This document shows positions 5,317 to 59,164 of a stretch of DNA of 64,000 nucleotides, piece after piece. The position numbers and the translations under genes are program-made. Numbering within the stretch: position 1 is the first letter of the stretch; every line of letters starts with the position of its first letter. The notes under the pieces were generated by a model that had not been told where the DNA came from, did not search any database, and was given only the letters and a program-made list of their open reading frames with translations. The DNA comes from the human T2T-CHM13v2.0 reference genome, Homo sapiens: NCBI RefSeq assembly GCF_009914755.1, contig NC_060933.1; one strand, 5' to 3'.

Positions 5317-7215
5317 CCTCAGGGGTTGCCTGGGAATGCGTGTTTCTGTGCCACCACTGTAGGACTGTGTGTGTGTGTGTGTCTCCCATTCTCTCTTCTC
5401 TCTCTGTCTCTCACCCTCTGTGTGTTTCTTTCCCTCTCTCTGTTTGTCTGTGTGTGTGTGTGTGTGTGTGTGTGTGTGTGTATGCCTGTGTGTGTGTGTG
5501 TCTTTGGACGAATGTGCTCTGTTTGCCAAAATGCGATTTTTTGCATGTCGGCCAGTCTTTGTTGAGCCTCTTTCTGTGTCTCTGTCTGGGTCCCGTGGCC
5601 GGTTGTCCATCGTTTTCATGGCGGTTCCACTCTGGGTTTGTGAAGTCCTCGATCACGTGAGGAGATGCGTCGGTCCCGGAGCAATCGAAGTCTCATCCCT
5701 ATCCTGAGCGGCCTCTTTTCTAGGATCAAGAGGACCACACTCCAACCCAGGACAAAACCCCACAGCAGCTCATTGTCCGGCAGGAGAGGAGCAGACACAC
5801 CTCCAAGAAGATGGTTGTACCCCTGCACGGCTCTTCTCTGAGCAATGAAGCCACACCACGATACAATTCTGAAGAGGAAGCCGGGAATGGGAGACAGCAA
5901 CAATCCCTGTCCCTGGAATGCTGGCCTCTCTGGACAAGTCATGCGTTTCGCACCCCTCCCCTTATGCCTGTGGCGGTGGCAAGGTTCTGTAACCTGCCTG
6001 GGCTCTGGCCTGTGCTCTGTCCTCCCTCTTGCTCTGTCTCCCCTGTTTCTGAGGGGCCTAGTTGCCTCTTGGTCTGGCTGAATAACTTCTACGAAGATCG
6101 CTTCCCAGTCCATCAGGGAGACACTTTCTGGAGATCCGCGACATGACTCTTTCTCTCTCCAAACCTGTTTCTGCTGGATTGGGCAGGTCTGATAAGCCTG
6201 GAACACTTGGCTTCCATGCGTGTCTCAGACAGGGAAGCTTCTTTGGTCTCCTTGTTTCACCTCATCGGTGGGTGGATTGCCTAGAATGAGCGCTAGGTTA
6301 TCATGACTGGCCTTGTCTTCTAAGACAGGTGGTGTCCCATTTCCTTTGCATGTCCTGTCTCACAAATGAGGGATATCCTCTCCTCTGCTCATAGGTGGAC
6401 TGATTCCCTGAATCTTTTGTCTGTAATGAATGTCAGGAAACCAAAGGAACTGGGCTGGGCCTGGGGATGGGGTTGGGGCCGGGTGCAGGGAAGTTGCGTC
6501 AGGGCTACCTGGGCGGTGGAGGCTTCGGGGTGGGGTGAATGTTGCAGAAACCTCTGTGCTCCTCTGGCAGGCATTTCAAAATGTGGCTTGGACTGAGGCA
6601 AAGGCCCCGTCCAGGTTCCCAGGTCTTCTTTGAATTCCCTTGGCACTCAGGGAAAGGCCACTTGTTCCCCCTTTCCACCGGGCACATGCCTGGACACCAT
6701 TGTTGGTTTTGCCATCACCCCATATGCCTCCGGTGACACACATTCACACCATCTGCTGTGGGATACGCCAGTGCCACACGTGATCGCATTGTCTCCACCT
6801 CGGCTTCGCACCATCCCTGTTTGCACCTGTCCTGGAAAGCGGTGTCCACTTGCAGGAGCCCCAGGGCTTTTAGAAGTGGGGCACGCCACTGCTCTTTCAA
6901 CGGAGGAGGGAGGCAGAGGGCTCACAGATCAGTGAACTTTCAGCTGACACCACGCCTTGAGGGCCATGGGATCATTCTGTGCTGCAGCGACGACCTGCCT
7001 GCCTCACCAGATGTGCTGAGCCCATCCTTTCTAACCCGGAGGGGTCCAAACTAGGATCTGAAGAGGAGTCCTGAGAACCCAGCAGGCACCCTGAAGATCC
7101 CCCTCCATCGGTGGAAGTCGGCTCAAGGAGGTCTTGAAGATTGGACTCCTGGGGGTTTGGCCCTGGGACAGGATACTCAAGGACTCCTCTCCCACCCCGC
7201 CCCAAACTGGACCTC
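5317..7215 (+). repeat. Partial SST1/NBL2-type macrosatellite monomer (strand relative, TG-rich strand = +)
   Basis: Colinear with 57203-59113 in this window; shares (TG)n tracts, the GGGGCT-type run and 'atcattctgtgctgcagcga'. Confidence 0.88.
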
Positions 7216-7284
7216 AGCCCCCACGCCACAGCCCCCACTTTCTCCCCAGAGCTGAGGGACAGACAGAGAATTGCGACTAGAAAT

Positions 7285-55440: not shown

Positions 55441-56741
55441 TTTAACCAGGGAGTTACAGATAACTTCGTTAACTGCGTGAAGGAATTGTCCTGAACTCAG
55501 TCTCTGTGGCCAACCTAGCCTCCAGGATCTCTAGGATGCTAGGACGGGAGTGGAGACCCTTGGACCAGGCTAACCACCATGTGCCATCCTCCACACACCC
55601 CTGCCCACAGGACTAGGAATTCCTGCAGTGCAGGGACTCTGTCTGCTGCCTGGCACAGAATGGTTGCCCAAACATACTTGTTGAGGTAAACGGAATGGCA
55701 GTCAATACAAAAACTCACCCTCACTCTGCACACCACCATAGCCACTGCTGGCTAGCAGGCACCCTAGCCAGGCTGGGAGATAACATGGCGGCTGGCAGCA
55801 GCTTGGGCTTTGACCGGACCAGTGGTTAGTAGGGTGGGAGAGAATCCTGAGCCTAGGATGGGGCGGGGACTGGAGCAAGGCACCTGGAATCCAGAAATCT
55901 GGGGGTAAGCCAAGGCAGACCCACCGCCCCAGTGCACTTCTGTTTTCTATCTCCAGTCTCATGGCTCCCTGGACCCCCAAAAGTTATGAAAACTAAACCA
56001 GAGCTGAGACCTGGGCTAGGAAGGAATTGCCTGTCAACCCGAGGGGTGCAAAGAGGAACCACCATTGGGTCCATTAAGAAATCCACAAATAAAACAAAAA
56101 TAAATCAGTGTGACACAGACAACTTGGCTGAAGGAAACGTTTCTCTCTGTGCCTCAGCCCTGCTCCAGGGCTACCAAACAGATCAGGCTTAATATTTAAA
56201 ATGTTTAATAGTTAAAATTTTTTAACAATTTAACTTTAAAAAGGTCACACATTTTCTGATCCAGCAATGCCCCAATCAGATTGTTTCATTTTATTATTAT
56301 TATCAACACTGTCCCCTTTTTGGCACCTGTAAAATAGTTCCTTTCGGGAGTTTGGAGCCAGGCCAGGCACCGTCGGTGCATGGGATAAGATGGGCAGGTT
56401 TGGAGCTCCTCTGTCTAGTGAGGATCACCGTCTGCAGAGAAGGGTTGGCCTCCCCGTCTCCCATCAAGGCTTAAAGCAAGGAGAACCATCCCGAATTTGG
56501 TTCCTTTTCCCCTAAGTATCCTTAGAGGCAATCCACTCTGTGACTAGGTGACTAGGTGAAGGACTGAGGTCCAGAAAGGAGCTATCTTAAAACTGGAATC
56601 CCATTTCCTAGTCTGCAGCCTTAAGCAGTTTCCCTCTCAGACAACTAGTCCTCTCCTTTCTCCCCATGAAAACCCATGGCTTAGAGGGATGGTTGTTGCT
56701 TTCCCTAAAGAAATTCAGGAAGGGAGATCTGAGGGTCATTT

Positions 56742-59164
56742 CTCAGCGGTGGCATTCTTTAAAGGGGATGCAGCCTGACTGCCAGGAGGAGAGAACGAGT
56801 CGGCCGAGCCAATGCGCATGCGCGAGGCACGAGCAGCTTCTCCCTTCACAGTGGTTTCCACAGTTGTCTTAGAAACCAGTCCCGAGGCTTGGCAAAGGGG
56901 GAGACTTCCGTGGCAATGCTTGGGTGTCAAGGCTCTGAGGATCCGGCCTGACCTCTCCACTGGGGTGAGGGGAAAGTCTCCGGATGCCAAGAGTCACAAA
57001 GGGCTGAACAGGGTGAGGAAACCCGACACAGAGTCCGGAAAAGGCAGCATGGAATCCCTCCCTCAGGCCTGCCTGGACGGTGTTGGTTGGGGTGAGTCTC
57101 CCCAAAAGTCATGACGTGGTGATCTCGAGGACAGGACGGCCTGCGTGCCGCTGGGGTGCTCTCTCACCGAAGGGTCGTTCTCGTTGAAAGCAGAACCCCA
57201 CAGCCTCAGGGGTTGCCTGGGTGTGTGTGTTTCAAAGCCTTTGCTGTAAGACTCTGTGTGTGTGTCTGTGTGTGTATGTGTGTGTGTGTGTGTGTGTATC
57301 CTATTCTCTCTTCTCTGTCTCTCAGTCTCTGTGTGTTTCTTTCCCTCTCTCGGTCGGTTTGTGTGTGTGTTCCCCTTGTGCGTGTGTGTCCTTGGCTGAA
57401 TGTGCCCTATGCGCCACAAAGCTGCTTCTCACATGGCGGACTGTCTTTGGTGAGCCTGTTTCTGCCTCTCTGCCAGGGTCATGAGGCCGGTTGTCAATCC
57501 TTTTTGCCAACGCGGTTCCGCTTTGGGTGTTTGAAGGCCTGGCCCACGTGAGGAGATGCTTCGGTCCCAGAGCAATTGAAATATCATCCCCATCCTGAGC
57601 GGCCTCTTTTCTAAGATCAAGATGAACACACTGCAGATGAGGACACGAGCCCCACAGGAGCTCTTTCTCCCGCAGGAGACCAGCAGACCCACGTCAGAGA
57701 AGATGCTTGTATCTTTTCATGGCTCTTCTCTGAGAAATGAAGCCACACCACAATACGGTCTGGAAGAGGAAGCTGGGAATGGGAGATGGAAACAATCCCT
57801 GTCAATGGAACGCTGGCCTCTCTGGACAAGCCACCGTTTTGGAACCCCACCCCTTATGACCCTGGCAGTGGAACGATGATATATCCTGCCTGGCCGCCGG
57901 CGTCTGCCCTGTCCTCCCTCCTGCTGTGCCTCACCTGTTTCTCAAGTGCCTCGATGCCTCTCGCTGACGCCCAATGTCTTCAACAAAGATGACTTACCAG
58001 TCCATCAGGGAGACATTTCTTCGAGATCCGTGTCGTGATTGTTTCTCTATCCAAACGTGTTTCTGCTTGAATGGGCAGGTCTCATGACCTGGGAGCTCCT
58101 GGCTTCCATTCGTGTCTCAGGCAGGGAAGCTTCCTTCTTCTCCACGTTTCCCCTCATGGGTGGGTGGATTGCCTAGAATGAGCGCTAGGCGACCGTGACA
58201 GGCCCTGTCTTCCAGGAAAGGTAGTGTCGCATTTCCTCTGCACTTCCTGTCTCATTCATGAGGGACATCCTCTCCTCTGCTCCTGGGTGGACTGACTCCC
58301 TTGATCTTCTGGCCGAAACGAATGCCAGGGAACCAAAGGGACTGGGCTGGGGCTGGGGCTGGGGCTGTGGCTGGGCGCAGCCGAAGTTGCGTCAGGGCTA
58401 CCAGGGCGGTGGAGGATTGGGGGTGGGGCGAATTTTGCAGAAACCTCTTTGCTCCTCTGGTAGGCATTCGAAAACGTGGCTTGGCTCCGGCACAGGCCCC
58501 TCACCCCCCGGGTCCTAGGTGTTCTTCGATTTTCCTTGGCATTGATGGAAAGTTCACCCGTTTCCCCATTCAACCGGCACATGCCTGGACACCACCCTCT
58601 GTTTCGCCGTCGCCCCGTATGCCTCCGGTGACACACATTAACACCAACTGCTGTGGGATAGGCCAGTGCCACACGTGGTCACATGGTCTCCACCTCGGAT
58701 TCGCCCCTGTTCCTCTATGCAGGTGTGCTGTAAAGCGCGGTCAGCTTTCCGGAACCCCAGGGCTTTTAGAAGCGGGGCTGGCCACTGCTCTTTCAAAGGA
58801 GGAGGGAGGCAGAGGGCTGATGGATGAGTGAATTTGCAGCTGACACTAGGCCTTGAGACCTATGGGATCATTCTGTGCTGCAGCGAGGCCCTGCCGGCCT
58901 GAACAGATGTGGTGAGCCCATCCTATCTCACACGAAGGGGGCCAAAATGGGATCTGAATGGGAGTCCGGAAAACACAGCAGGCATCCTGAAGCTCCCTCT
59001 CCCTCGGTGGAAGTCGGCTCAAGCAGGACCTGAGGTGAGGACTCCTCGGGGTTTGGCCCTGGGACAGGAGAAGACACCCGCGACGCCCTCTCCCACGCCG
59101 CCCCAAACTGGACCCCGGGTCTAGCCGCCACCGCGGGGGTAGCAGGAGCCTCGCTGCTGCCGCG
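56742..59164 (+). repeat. SST1 macrosatellite monomer, 2423 bp
   Basis: 'ctcag.ggtggca...tttaaagggga' recurs at 56742 and 59165. Confidence 0.9.

What the first reader, a model, noticed from the sequence alone, without database searches (positions are those of the whole stretch)
7200..56770. A ~49.5-kb euchromatic block inserted into a single SST1 macrosatellite monomer
Seen: the left satellite stops at '...cccaaactggacc' (7213; equivalent to 59114 in an intact monomer, with weak similarity perhaps to ~7231). The right satellite resumes at 'ctcagcggtggca' (56742; equivalent to 59165) in the same orientation. Removing the block restores a monomer lacking only ~35-50 bp. CTCAGC occurs at both junctions (7213-7218, 56742-56747). 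Inference: duplicative transposition into SST1, so SST1 acted as a landing pad, and direct-repeat flanks could let the cassette be excised or spread by recombination like a composite element.
Basis: partly seen in the sequence, partly recalled or inferred. Interest (0 to 1): 0.85.

Follow-up and report, generated by a model that had tools for sequence, protein, structure and literature searches.

The report
Chr12 segment inserted into SST1 repeat
A 49.5-kb copy of DNA from beside the HOXC genes on chromosome 12 was pasted once into a single unit of the SST1 satellite near a centromere and was then carried to several sites on chromosomes 9 and 20, which is a clean but ordinary example of how regions next to centromeres collect duplicated DNA.

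Summary
SST1 stops at 7213. Window 7212/7214-56737 is colinear with chr12:54,041,790-54,091,673, the FLJ12825/FAM242C interval just distal of HOXC4 (about 3% substitutions). Four bases of filler follow, and SST1 resumes at 56742 in the same orientation and phase, about 50 bp short.

The chr12 donor carries no SST1. Uninterrupted "empty" versions of the same flank-plus-SST1 unit exist at chr20:26.06 Mb and chr7:58.06 Mb. Every other copy that keeps a block end shares the identical junction: 5 of 5 on the left and 4 of 4 on the right. So there was one insertion event.

The junctions show 2 bp of microhomology, 4 nt of filler, a roughly 50-bp target loss, and no target-site duplication or poly-A. 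This points to end-joining or template-switch capture.

Spread was by larger secondary duplications, not by the SST1 flanks, because homology runs beyond SST1 in the copies I could examine. The flanking direct repeats share at most 31 exact bases. The shared CTCAGC has mixed origin, donor on the left and SST1 on the right.

This is the classical pericentromeric "seeding and swapping" pattern. The acceptor appears to be the published SST1/alpha-satellite duplicon of chromosomes 7, 9, 12, 17 and 20. It is a new, well-resolved member of a known kind, of modest interest.

The parts
1..1590 (.). Outer left flank. Shared with the filled copies chr9:41.6 (99%) and chr20:30.45 (96%). The chr9 copies lack 2.68 kb at 1590/1591 that chr20:30.45 and both empty loci keep.
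1591..5365 (.). Unique (non-SST1) part of the acceptor duplicon. Also present next to uninterrupted SST1 at chr20:26055303 onward and chr7:58058146 onward.
   Evidence: 94.6% and 94.1% over 5.6 kb; substitution distance filled-versus-empty 3.8-4.3%.
5366..5452 (-). Edge of the SST1 array: the last 89 positions of a partial unit. Strand is relative to reference monomer 61115-62528.
5453..6489 (-). About 1 kb that belongs to the long (~2.4 kb) form of the SST1 unit. It recurs at 57363-58378 and, inverted, at 60097-61115. It is included in the 2.35-2.37-kb-period array at chr17:23.04-23.10 Mb.
   Evidence: (D9, I1, I3)
6490..7213 (-). Left half of the split SST1 unit (monomer positions 1408->675).
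7212..7213 (.). CC present in both the SST1 target and the chr12 donor: 2 bp of microhomology at the left junction.
7214..56737 (-). Block derived from chr12:54,041,790-54,091,673 (minus strand of chr12 relative to the window). This is the FLJ12825 / LOC100240735 / LOC100240734 / FAM242C interval between HOXC4 and SMUG1.
   Evidence: six colinear megablast pieces, 94.4-96.5%..
7356..12049 (+). lncRNA LOC105379447, positional counterpart of FAM242C (chr12), FAM242E/F (chr9) and FAM242A/B (chr20).
   Evidence: RefSeq rows in the brief
33812..33923 (+). Y RNA pseudogene carried inside the block. It is already present in the chr12 donor.
   Evidence: RF00019, 46.6 bits. (93.7% to chr12).
45697..48780 (.). 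Switch zone of the mosaic. To its left the window is 1.1% from chr9:41.6, and to its right 2.75%. chr9:41.6 lacks window 46170-48780. The partial inverted copy at chr9:48.15 begins at the equivalent of 47959.
56738..56741 (.). Four bases of filler at the right junction (ATTT here, AGTT in chr9:41.6 and chr9:48.15). They match neither the donor continuation nor SST1.
56742..57363 (-). Right half of the split SST1 unit (monomer positions ~626->1).
57364..59663 (-). Next SST1 unit in the same orientation. It contains the intact counterpart of the insertion site at 59114/59165.
59664..64000 (+). SST1 units in the opposite orientation (inversion point 59664). The array continues to chr9:48,364,968 and is followed by about 3.9 kb of diverged 172-bp alpha-satellite-like repeat.

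Best explanation
The block is a segmental duplication. About 49.9 kb of euchromatic chr12q13.13, just distal of HOXC4, was copied and inserted once by a non-homologous route into the first roughly 2.4-kb unit at the edge of an SST1 array. That array belonged to a pericentromeric duplicon made of unique flank, SST1 and alpha satellite. The junctions are shown directly: 2 bp of microhomology on the left, 4 nt of filler on the right, about 50 bp of target lost, and no target-site duplication or poly-A. The repair route is inferred: a double-strand break in SST1 was repaired by end joining, or by microhomology-primed template switching, that captured a copy of the chr12 segment. The filled locus was then copied passively, as part of larger secondary duplications, to chr20q11 (2 copies, both later truncated on the right) and to four full sites and one partial site in the chr9 pericentromere. 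The window is one of the full sites. This is 'seeding' followed by 'swapping'. Pairwise divergence of about 3% between chr12 and the copies, and between the chr9 and chr20 copies, places seeding and the first swap close together. By recalled calibration that is roughly at great-ape-ancestor depth. The chr9 copies diverged much later (about 1%). The SST1 flanks are the scar of the target, not the engine of spread.
For: 1. Donor ends. chr12:54090682-54091673 aligns only to positions 1013-2001 of the left-junction probe. chr12:54041790-54042782 aligns only to positions 1-988 of the right-junction probe. The full block is colinear with chr12.
2. No SST1 at the donor. None appeared across the 70 kb searched, chr12:54031001-54101000, about 10 kb on each side of the segment.
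3. Empty sites. chr20:26055303-26060906 and chr7:58058146-58063767 match window 1591-7213 and run straight on, in phase, into the other half of the unit.
4. One event. Probes inside the block find 7 places each. All 5 non-chr12, non-window copies that hold the left end share the left junction. All 4 that hold the right end share the right junction. For three copies these were checked base by base.
5. Order of events. In the unique left flank, filled-versus-empty distance is 3.8-4.3% and chr9-filled versus chr20-filled is 3.2-3.35%. In the left 38 kb of the block, chr12 versus copies is 2.9-3.1%. Site patterns over 38,274 columns give chr12 alone 1.36%, chr20 alone 1.56%, chr9 stem 1.03% plus tips 0.43-0.59%. 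This is star-like.
6. Passive spread. Homology extends beyond the SST1 fragment on the left in both fetched filled copies. It extends beyond the SST1 array into alpha satellite between chr9:48.36 and chr20:30.51, at 95-97%.
7. Monomer trees. The left half sits with the empty-site unit at 90/94 support. The right half joins the empty-site right halves in the best tree.
8. Model in print. The 'seeding' and 'swapping' model of pericentromeric duplications is in print (PMC2566985, passage seen).
Against: 1. Right flank divergence. The right SST1 flank is much further from the empty loci (12.5-13.6%) than the left SST1 fragment is (7.1-8.0%). The two empty loci also differ more from each other there (10.9% against 7.6%). 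With CpG columns masked, chr9:41.6, chr7 and chr20 are about equidistant (7.7-9.3%). Faster decay or array turnover therefore suffices, but orthology of the right half is not proven. Its tree support is weak (44/83.6) and the filled clade sits on a long stem of 0.074.
2. chr20 and the right junction. No chr20 copy keeps the right junction. In chr20:30.45 the block stops at the equivalent of 54615 and meets SST1 at about the equivalent of 57014, in the same orientation. This reads as a 2.4-kb deletion, but that SST1 is only 86% like the window's.
3. Rising divergence. chr12-to-copy divergence rises toward the right end: 3.1%, then 4.2%, then 5.7%. This is unexplained.
4. Mechanism. It is inferred from junction anatomy alone.
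5. Dating. The dates rest on recalled primate divergences, and no ape genome could be searched.
6. Incomplete sampling. Three copies (chr9:43.2, chr9:79.45 and most of chr20:31.18) were seen only through probe alignments. Matches in closed regions of the reference are not shown.
Confidence: 0.9

Rival explanations
1. Composite-element reading. The SST1 direct repeats on either side mobilise the cassette, so copies arose, or can be excised, by recombination between SST1 flanks.
For: SST1 lies in the same orientation on both sides. Direct-repeat families D8 and D9 pair 5758-7115 with 57650-59011 at 79-83%. Several rearrangement breakpoints do fall inside SST1: the insertion itself, the inversion at 59664, and the chr20:30.45 junction. 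A published association links SST1 monomers with segmental duplications (PMC12657243).
Against: Copy-to-copy homology does not stop at SST1. All junctions are identical by descent. The longest exact direct match between the left fragment and the right SST1 is 31 bp, and overall identity is about 80%. The left flank is one 1.85-kb fragment, not an array. The empty loci are more diverged from the filled copies than the filled copies are from each other, so they look pre-insertion rather than like excision products.
Confidence: 0.03
2. The 'empty' loci on chr20p and chr7 are secondary. The cassette was once there and was removed by unequal recombination between the left SST1 fragment and the next unit on the right, which would restore an apparently intact unit.
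For: Geometrically possible. A crossover between 5452-7213 and 57363-59114 would delete the block and regenerate a unit that contains the ~50 bp. The right-half tree is too weak to exclude hybrid units.
Against: The empty-site left halves fall wholly in the 'edge' clade, and their right halves do not fall in the array clade. The flank distance filled-versus-empty (3.8-4.3%) exceeds both the chr9-versus-chr20 filled distance (3.2-3.35%) and the donor-versus-copy distance (2.9-3.1%). The loss would also have to happen twice, or before the chr7/chr20p split at 4.2%.
Confidence: 0.04
3. Reverse direction. The pericentromeric copy is the original and chr12q13.13 received the segment.
For: Distances alone are symmetric and star-like.
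Against: The pericentromeric copies interrupt an SST1 unit that exists uninterrupted elsewhere. chr12 would have had to receive a copy trimmed to within 0-4 bases of both SST1 junctions. On chr12 the segment lies in single-copy sequence between HOXC4 and SMUG1, with annotated lncRNAs running across its ends.
Confidence: 0.01
4. Assembly artefact: a chimeric join in a hard-to-assemble pericentromeric region.
For: The region is duplication-rich. The window copy is a mosaic of 1.1% and 2.75% divergence from its nearest paralogue.
Against: The same two junctions recur at several separately assembled sites on two chromosomes, with site-specific substitutions.
Confidence: 0.01

Closest known systems
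Pericentromeric segmental duplications formed by 'seeding' (duplicative transposition from euchromatin) and 'swapping' between pericentromeres. This is the two-step model. I saw it as a passage in PMC2566985, and 'pericentromeric duplicative transpositions' as a passage in PMC3814877. The original Eichler and Horvath papers are recalled, not read.
   Same: The donor is euchromatic and stays in place. The acceptor lies next to centromeric satellites. The junctions are non-homologous. Later, larger blocks spread to other pericentromeric sites on chr9 and chr20 with shared junctions. Divergence is a few percent.
   Different: Nothing essential. What is added here is a base-pair-resolved acceptor site inside a macrosatellite unit, with two surviving empty paralogous sites.
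Segmental duplication of 27 kb or more containing Y-like alpha satellite and SST1 subfamily 3 on chromosomes 7, 9, 12, 17 and 20 (de Lima et al. 2025, PMC12657243; passages and the Fig. 2 legend seen).
   Same: The acceptor has the same composition and chromosome set. SST1 is followed by 172-bp alpha-satellite-like repeats. The SST1-to-alpha-satellite transition is shared by chr9:48.36, chr20:30.51, chr20:25.99, chr7:58.01 and chr12:37.49 at 92-96%. SST1 relatives are also present on chr17.
   Different: The passages I saw do not mention a chr12q13.13 insert in that duplicon. I did not compare these units with chrY, so the 'sf3 / Y-like' label for them is inferred. The paper's figures and supplements were not seen.
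SST1-mediated exchange between acrocentric chromosomes (Robertsonian fusions; PMC12657243, abstract and passages seen).
   Same: SST1 is the site of a large interchromosomal rearrangement.
   Different: There the exchange is homologous recombination between near-identical sf1 arrays. Here a non-SST1 segment was captured by a non-homologous join. No PRDM9-type 13-mer lies in window 5000-8000, around the left junction, and the nearest to the right junction is at 59451.
Bacterial composite transposon (two insertion-sequence copies flanking cargo).
   Same: Cargo lies between two same-orientation pieces of one repeat family.
   Different: The two pieces are the two halves of a single target unit, not two complete elements. 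There is no transposase, no terminal inverted repeats and no target-site duplication. Copy boundaries do not coincide with the repeats.

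Membership tests
Interchromosomal segmental duplication (seeding step of the pericentromeric two-step model) | At least 1 kb at 90% identity or more to a second locus on another chromosome | tested here: met
   49.5 kb, 94.4-96.5% by megablast and 2.9-3.1% substitutions over 38 kb against chr12
Interchromosomal segmental duplication (seeding step of the pericentromeric two-step model) | The donor keeps its own flanks, and the copy's homology to the donor ends at the junctions with acceptor sequence | tested here: met
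   Donor alignment ends at window 7212 and 56737. No SST1 in the 70 kb of chr12 searched.
Interchromosomal segmental duplication (seeding step of the pericentromeric two-step model) | An uninterrupted (empty) form of the acceptor exists | tested here: met
   chr20:26.06 Mb and chr7:58.06 Mb carry the same 5.6-kb flank followed by an intact unit
Interchromosomal segmental duplication (seeding step of the pericentromeric two-step model) | The acceptor lies next to centromeric satellite | tested here: met
   The window starts 0.73 Mb beyond the last masked block of 20 kb or more in the chr9:45.06-47.56 Mb run. Alpha-satellite-like 172-bp repeats begin 3 kb beyond the window.
Swapping step (secondary pericentromeric duplication) | Several pericentromeric copies share the primary junctions and extra flanking sequence | tested here: met
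   5 of 5 other copies with the left end and 4 of 4 with the right end share the junction. Flanks are shared beyond SST1.
Composite-transposon-like cassette mobilised by its flanking repeats | Copy boundaries coincide with the outer ends of the flanking repeats | tested here: not met
   Homology continues at least 5.4 kb left of the SST1 fragment in the two fetched filled copies. It also continues past the array on the right. The truncated copies end elsewhere.
Composite-transposon-like cassette mobilised by its flanking repeats | Target-site duplication at each new site, or independent insertion sites | tested here: not met
   There is a single site. About 50 bp of target is lost rather than duplicated. 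CTCAGC is donor-derived on the left and SST1-derived on the right.
Composite-transposon-like cassette mobilised by its flanking repeats | Flanks similar enough for homologous recombination | tested here: not met
   79-83% identity. The longest exact direct match is 31 bp. The length threshold for efficient mammalian recombination is recalled, not tested.
Retrotransposon-mediated transduction or retrocopy | Poly-A tail, target-site duplication, kb-scale length | tested here: not met
   No A-run and no duplication at either junction. The length is 49.5 kb.
SST1 macrosatellite (identity of the flanks) | Homology to tandem arrays of 1.4-2.4-kb units at the loci that the literature calls SST1 | tested here: met
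In-window period is 1408-1415 and 2430 bp. There is 87% identity to 29 listed units spaced 2.32-2.38 kb apart at chr17:23.04-23.10 Mb. Hits occur on chr13, chr14 and chr21 and at chr19:39.7 Mb. Papers name chr4, 17 and 19 and the acrocentric arrays as SST1.
SST1 subfamily 3 (Y-like) duplicon of chr7/9/12/17/20 | Units cluster with chrY (TTY2) units | not tested
   No comparison with chrY was made. Only the chromosome set and the adjoining alpha-satellite-like repeat agree.

The most novel reading that the evidence does not exclude
SST1 units of this pericentromeric SST1/alpha-satellite duplicon are break-prone sites that preferentially capture large euchromatic segments. On this reading the macrosatellite acts as a real 'landing pad' for seeding events, not only as a substrate for homologous exchange as in Robertsonian fusions. 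This locus, with its empty sites and base-level junctions, would be the type example. Several further breakpoints within a few kb of SST1 are in line with such fragility but do not show a preference: the inversion at 59664 and the chr20:30.45 block/SST1 junction.
Probability: 0.2. Interest if true: 0.55.

Novelty: new member of a known kind. Interest (0 to 1): 0.3.

Why it matters
It gives a rare fully resolved 'before and after' for a pericentromeric seeding event. The donor, two empty acceptor paralogues, both junctions and all descendant copies are visible in one complete genome.

It explains the origin of the FAM242 lncRNA family. FAM242C on chr12 is the parent. FAM242A/B on chr20, FAM242E/F on chr9 and LOC105379447 in this window are positional copies.

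It shows why lncRNA models such as FAM27E2 and FAM27E3 straddle a block/SST1 join.

It also adds one concrete non-homologous event to the growing picture of SST1 as a rearrangement-prone macrosatellite. It does not reveal a new mechanism.

Tried and rejected
Long probes. Whole-genome searches with 16-17-kb pieces of the block were swamped by Alu matches, because only 26-35 candidates were scored. They gave almost nothing. I replaced them with 2-kb repeat-poor probes and with local BLAST on fetched loci.

TRF. It could not see SST1, because its maximum period is 500.

Target-site duplication. Rejected, because CTCAGC has mixed origin.

Circular intermediate integrating at CTCAGC. Considered and rejected by reasoning, because it predicts that the ~50 bp would be retained at the left junction, and they are missing.

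PRDM9-type motif at the break. None lies in window 5000-8000, around the left junction. There are 11 in the whole window, and among positions beyond 56000 only 59451 and 62857.

Right-half monomer tree. Uninformative polytomy. AU tests were indecisive.

Rfam. Only a Y RNA pseudogene.

Literature. Searches found no paper describing a chr12q13.13-to-SST1 insertion or the origin of FAM242. Searches returned nothing at all. This covers only the held library. The SST1 locus tables of the T2T repeat paper (Tables S14-S17 of 10.1101/2021.07.12.451456), and Fig. 2d and Supplementary Fig. 5 of PMC12657243, may already show this locus.

Not done:
- No ape or monkey genome was available, so presence or absence by lineage, and therefore the dating, is untested.
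- Full sequences of chr9:43.2, chr9:79.45 and most of chr20:31.18 were not fetched.
- No comparison with chrY SST1 was made.

Full report
WHAT IS THERE

I used the in-window 1414-bp repeat 61115-62528 as a ruler. Read left to right, the window holds these pieces:
- 5366-5452: a sliver of SST1, monomer positions 89->1.
- 5453-6489: about 1 kb that belongs to the long (~2.4 kb) form of the unit. It recurs at 57363-58378 and, inverted, at 60097-61115.
- 6490-7213: monomer positions 1408->675.
- 7214-56741: 49.5 kb of non-SST1 sequence.
- 56746-57363: monomer positions 622->1.
- Up to 59663: another unit in the same orientation.
- 59664 to the window end: units in the opposite orientation.

The two pieces next to the block are therefore the two halves of one unit, on the same strand and in the same phase. 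About 50 positions are missing between them.

The 'left satellite' is a 1.85-kb fragment at the edge of the array, not an array.

The name SST1 rests on three things:
- The period seen here, 1408-1415 bp and 2430 bp.
- Homology to the array at chr17:23.04-23.10 Mb, whose listed units lie 2.32-2.38 kb apart, to acrocentric loci and to chr19:39.7 Mb.
- Papers that call those arrays SST1 (10.1101/2021.07.12.451456 and PMC12657243; passages seen).
No repeat library was on hand.

THE DONOR

A 2-kb probe across the left junction (40 of 205 candidates scored) matched chr12:54090682-54091673 only from probe position 1013, which is window 7212. A probe across the right junction (23 of 825 candidates scored) matched chr12:54041790-54042782 only up to probe position 988, which is window 56737.

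Local megablast on fetched chr12 sequence shows six colinear pieces covering window 7212-56737, at 94.4-96.5%.

RefSeq places this 49.9-kb chr12 interval just distal of HOXC4 and proximal of SMUG1. It holds FLJ12825, LOC100240735, LOC100240734 and FAM242C.

The 70 kb of chr12 that I fetched, about 10 kb beyond each end of the segment, holds no SST1. Only TG-microsatellite matches appeared.

EMPTY SITES

Window 1591-7213 is 3.8 kb of unique sequence plus the SST1 fragment. It matches chr20:26055303-26060906 at 94.6% and chr7:58058146-58063767 at 94.1%.

In both loci the sequence runs straight on, in phase, into the other half of the SST1 unit. The two halves' alignments lie 51 bases apart. These loci are the uninterrupted form of the acceptor.

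JUNCTIONS

Left junction. SST1 ends in ...CTGGACC and the donor begins TCAGCC.... The last CC is present in both parents, giving 2 bp of microhomology.

Right junction. The donor ends in ...GAGGGTC. Four bases follow that match neither parent (ATTT here, AGTT in chr9:41.6 and chr9:48.15). SST1 then resumes with CTCAGCGGTGGC.

There is no target-site duplication, no poly-A and no terminal inverted repeat. About 50 bp of target is lost.

It is chr12 sequence on the left and SST1 sequence on the right. A shared 6-mer within +/-3 bases of two random window positions occurs 1.3-1.4% of the time. I could find no repair geometry in which it would act as a junction microhomology.

ONE EVENT, THEN PASSIVE SPREAD

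Repeat-poor probes from inside the block find 7 places each.
- The left-part probe finds the window, chr9:41.60, chr9:43.25, chr9:79.45, chr12, chr20:30.46 and chr20:31.18.
- The right-part probe finds the window, the same three chr9 sites, a partial inverted copy at chr9:48.15, chr12 and chr20:30.51.

All 5 other non-chr12 copies that have the left end align across the left junction. All 4 that have the right end align across the right junction. Where I fetched the sequence, the junction bases are the same.

The two chr20 copies lost the right junction later.
- chr20:31.18 stops at the equivalent of window 41558. It continues into sequence 96.6% like chr9:48370910-48372000.
- chr20:30.45 stops at the equivalent of 54615 and meets SST1 at about the equivalent of 57014, in the same orientation. 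This reads as a 2.4-kb deletion, although that SST1 is only 86% like the window's.

Homology between copies does not stop at the SST1 flanks.
- Window 1-5365 is shared with chr9:41.6 (99%) and chr20:30.45 (96%).
- A further 1.9 kb to the left is shared with chr9:41.6, up to the edge of what I fetched there.
- chr20:30.45 and both empty loci share a 2.68-kb stretch that the chr9 copies have lost at 1590/1591.
- To the right, chr9:48362004-48369282 matches chr20:30512766-30520000 at 95-97%, through the end of the SST1 array and into a 172-bp repeat.

TIMING (substitutions only)

Unique left flank:
- Filled versus empty: 3.8-4.3%.
- Empty versus empty: 4.2%.
- chr9-filled versus chr20-filled: 3.2-3.35%.
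- Window versus chr9:41.6: 0.96%.

Left 38 kb of the block:
- chr12 versus copies: 2.9-3.1%.
- chr9 versus chr20: 3.1-3.3%.
- Window versus chr9:41.6: 1.13%.

Site patterns over 38,274 columns:
- chr12 alone: 1.36%.
- chr20 alone: 1.56%.
- chr9 stem: 1.03%, plus tips of 0.43-0.59%.

This is a star. Seeding and the first chr9/chr20 swap followed each other closely, after the acceptor duplicon had already spread to chr7 and chr20p. The chr9 copies multiplied much later.

Against recalled primate divergences (human-orangutan about 3%, human-chimpanzee about 1.2%), seeding falls around the great-ape ancestor. This is inference, because no ape genome could be searched.

THE WEAK POINT

The right SST1 flank is 12.5-13.6% from the empty loci, whereas the left SST1 fragment is 7.1-8.0%.

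The two empty loci also differ more from each other on that side, 10.9% against 7.6%. With CpG columns masked, chr9:41.6, chr7 and chr20 are roughly equidistant at 7.7-9.3%. Faster decay of that CpG-rich part, or some array turnover, is therefore enough to explain the difference.

In monomer trees built from the units available in fetched loci (20 and 21 rows):
- The left half sits with the empty-site unit at 90/94 support, inside a 100/100 'edge' clade that includes a chr17 unit.
- The right half forms a 100/100 clade of filled copies on a long stem (0.074) in a polytomy.

The best tree does join the filled right halves to the empty-site right halves, at 44/83.6 support. The two alternatives tested are not rejected (p-AU 0.40 and 0.13).

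The phase match argues that both junctions are primary. By my estimate, about 50 bases out of a 2.4-kb unit is a coincidence of a few percent.

MECHANISM

Shown: one non-homologous insertion with 2 bp of microhomology, 4 nt of filler and a roughly 50-bp target loss, followed by block-wise copying.

Inferred: a break in the first SST1 unit was repaired by end joining, or by microhomology-primed template switching, that copied about 50 kb from chr12 while the donor stayed intact.

Not supported: flank-driven mobility. The left fragment and the right SST1 are about 80% alike and share at most 31 exact bases in direct orientation. Copy ends do not coincide with the flanks.

COMPARISON WITH WHAT IS KNOWN

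This is the 'seeding and swapping' pattern of pericentromeric duplications (passage in PMC2566985; 'pericentromeric duplicative transpositions' in PMC3814877).

The acceptor fits a published segmental duplication of 27 kb or more that carries Y-like alpha satellite and SST1 subfamily 3 on chromosomes 7, 9, 12, 17 and 20. The same paper reports a non-random association of SST1 monomers with segmental duplications (PMC12657243, passages).

Consistent with that, the SST1-to-alpha-satellite transition just right of the window is shared with chr20:30.51, chr20:25.99, chr7:58.01 and chr12:37.49 at 92-96%. I did not test the Y-like label.

Eight literature searches found no description of this chr12 insert or of the origin of FAM242. 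I opened no supplements or figures, and these may show it. Genome-wide duplication tracks very likely list the pairwise alignments; that is my expectation and I did not check it.

VERDICT

The core inference, duplicative transposition into one SST1 unit, is supported. The composite-element idea is not. 'Landing pad' is untested beyond this single event.

This is a tidy new member of a well-known kind. Interest 0.3.

Noticed in passing
window 45697-48780 (and 1-45696 versus 48781-64000): The window's copy is a mosaic. It differs from chr9:41.6 by 1.1% left of about 45.7 kb but by 2.75% (block) and 5.5% (SST1) right of about 48.8 kb. chr9:41.6 lacks window 46170-48780 and has about 0.5 kb of other sequence there. 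The partial inverted copy chr9:48149366-48159323 starts at the equivalent of 47959. This suggests gene conversion or recombination between chr9 paralogues of different age.
   Followed up: partly
window 59664 (arms 58497-58806 / 59664-59973 and others): SST1 orientation flips at 59664, giving palindrome-like inverted arms up to 94% complementary. The arrangement is colinear in chr9:41.6 and chr9:48.15, so it is old.
   Followed up: partly
L027 (chr9:48362001-48372000) 2968-6845: The SST1 array ends about 3 kb beyond the window. It is followed by 22 diverged copies of a 172-bp alpha-satellite-like repeat. That transition is shared with chr20 (two sites), chr7 and chr12:37.49 Mb at 92-96%.
   Followed up: partly
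window 1590/1591: The two chr9 copies examined (the window and chr9:41.6) lack 2.68 kb that chr20:30.45 has at this point. The last 145-302 bases of that stretch also precede the homology in both empty loci (chr7, chr20p), so this looks like a deletion in the chr9 lineage.
   Followed up: yes
window 33812-33923 (+): Rfam Y RNA match (46.6 bits). It is also present in the chr12 donor (93.7%) and in the two other copies I fetched, chr9:41.6 and chr20:30.45, so it is a pseudogene that travelled with the block.
   Followed up: yes
window 6509-6633 (-) and 7356-7568 (+): The first exon of lncRNA LOC124902170 lies inside the left SST1 fragment. The first exon of LOC105379447 lies 143 bp inside the block, facing away. 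In other chr9 copies, FAM27E2 and FAM27E3 straddle the right block/SST1 junction, while FAM27C and FAM27B lie several kb further right. The join seems to have created transcription units.
   Followed up: no
window 54616-56741 versus 7214-45696: Divergence from chr12 rises along the block: 3.1%, then 4.2%, then 5.7% in the last 2.1 kb. No explanation was tested.
   Followed up: no
chr7:58.012 versus 58.058-58.068 Mb; chr20:25.986 versus 26.055-26.065 Mb: In the two loci with the empty site, the SST1-to-alpha-satellite transition lies 46-70 kb to the left and is inverted. In the filled chr9:48.3 and chr20:30.5 loci it lies to the right in direct orientation. The large-scale layout of empty and filled loci therefore differs.
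   Followed up: no
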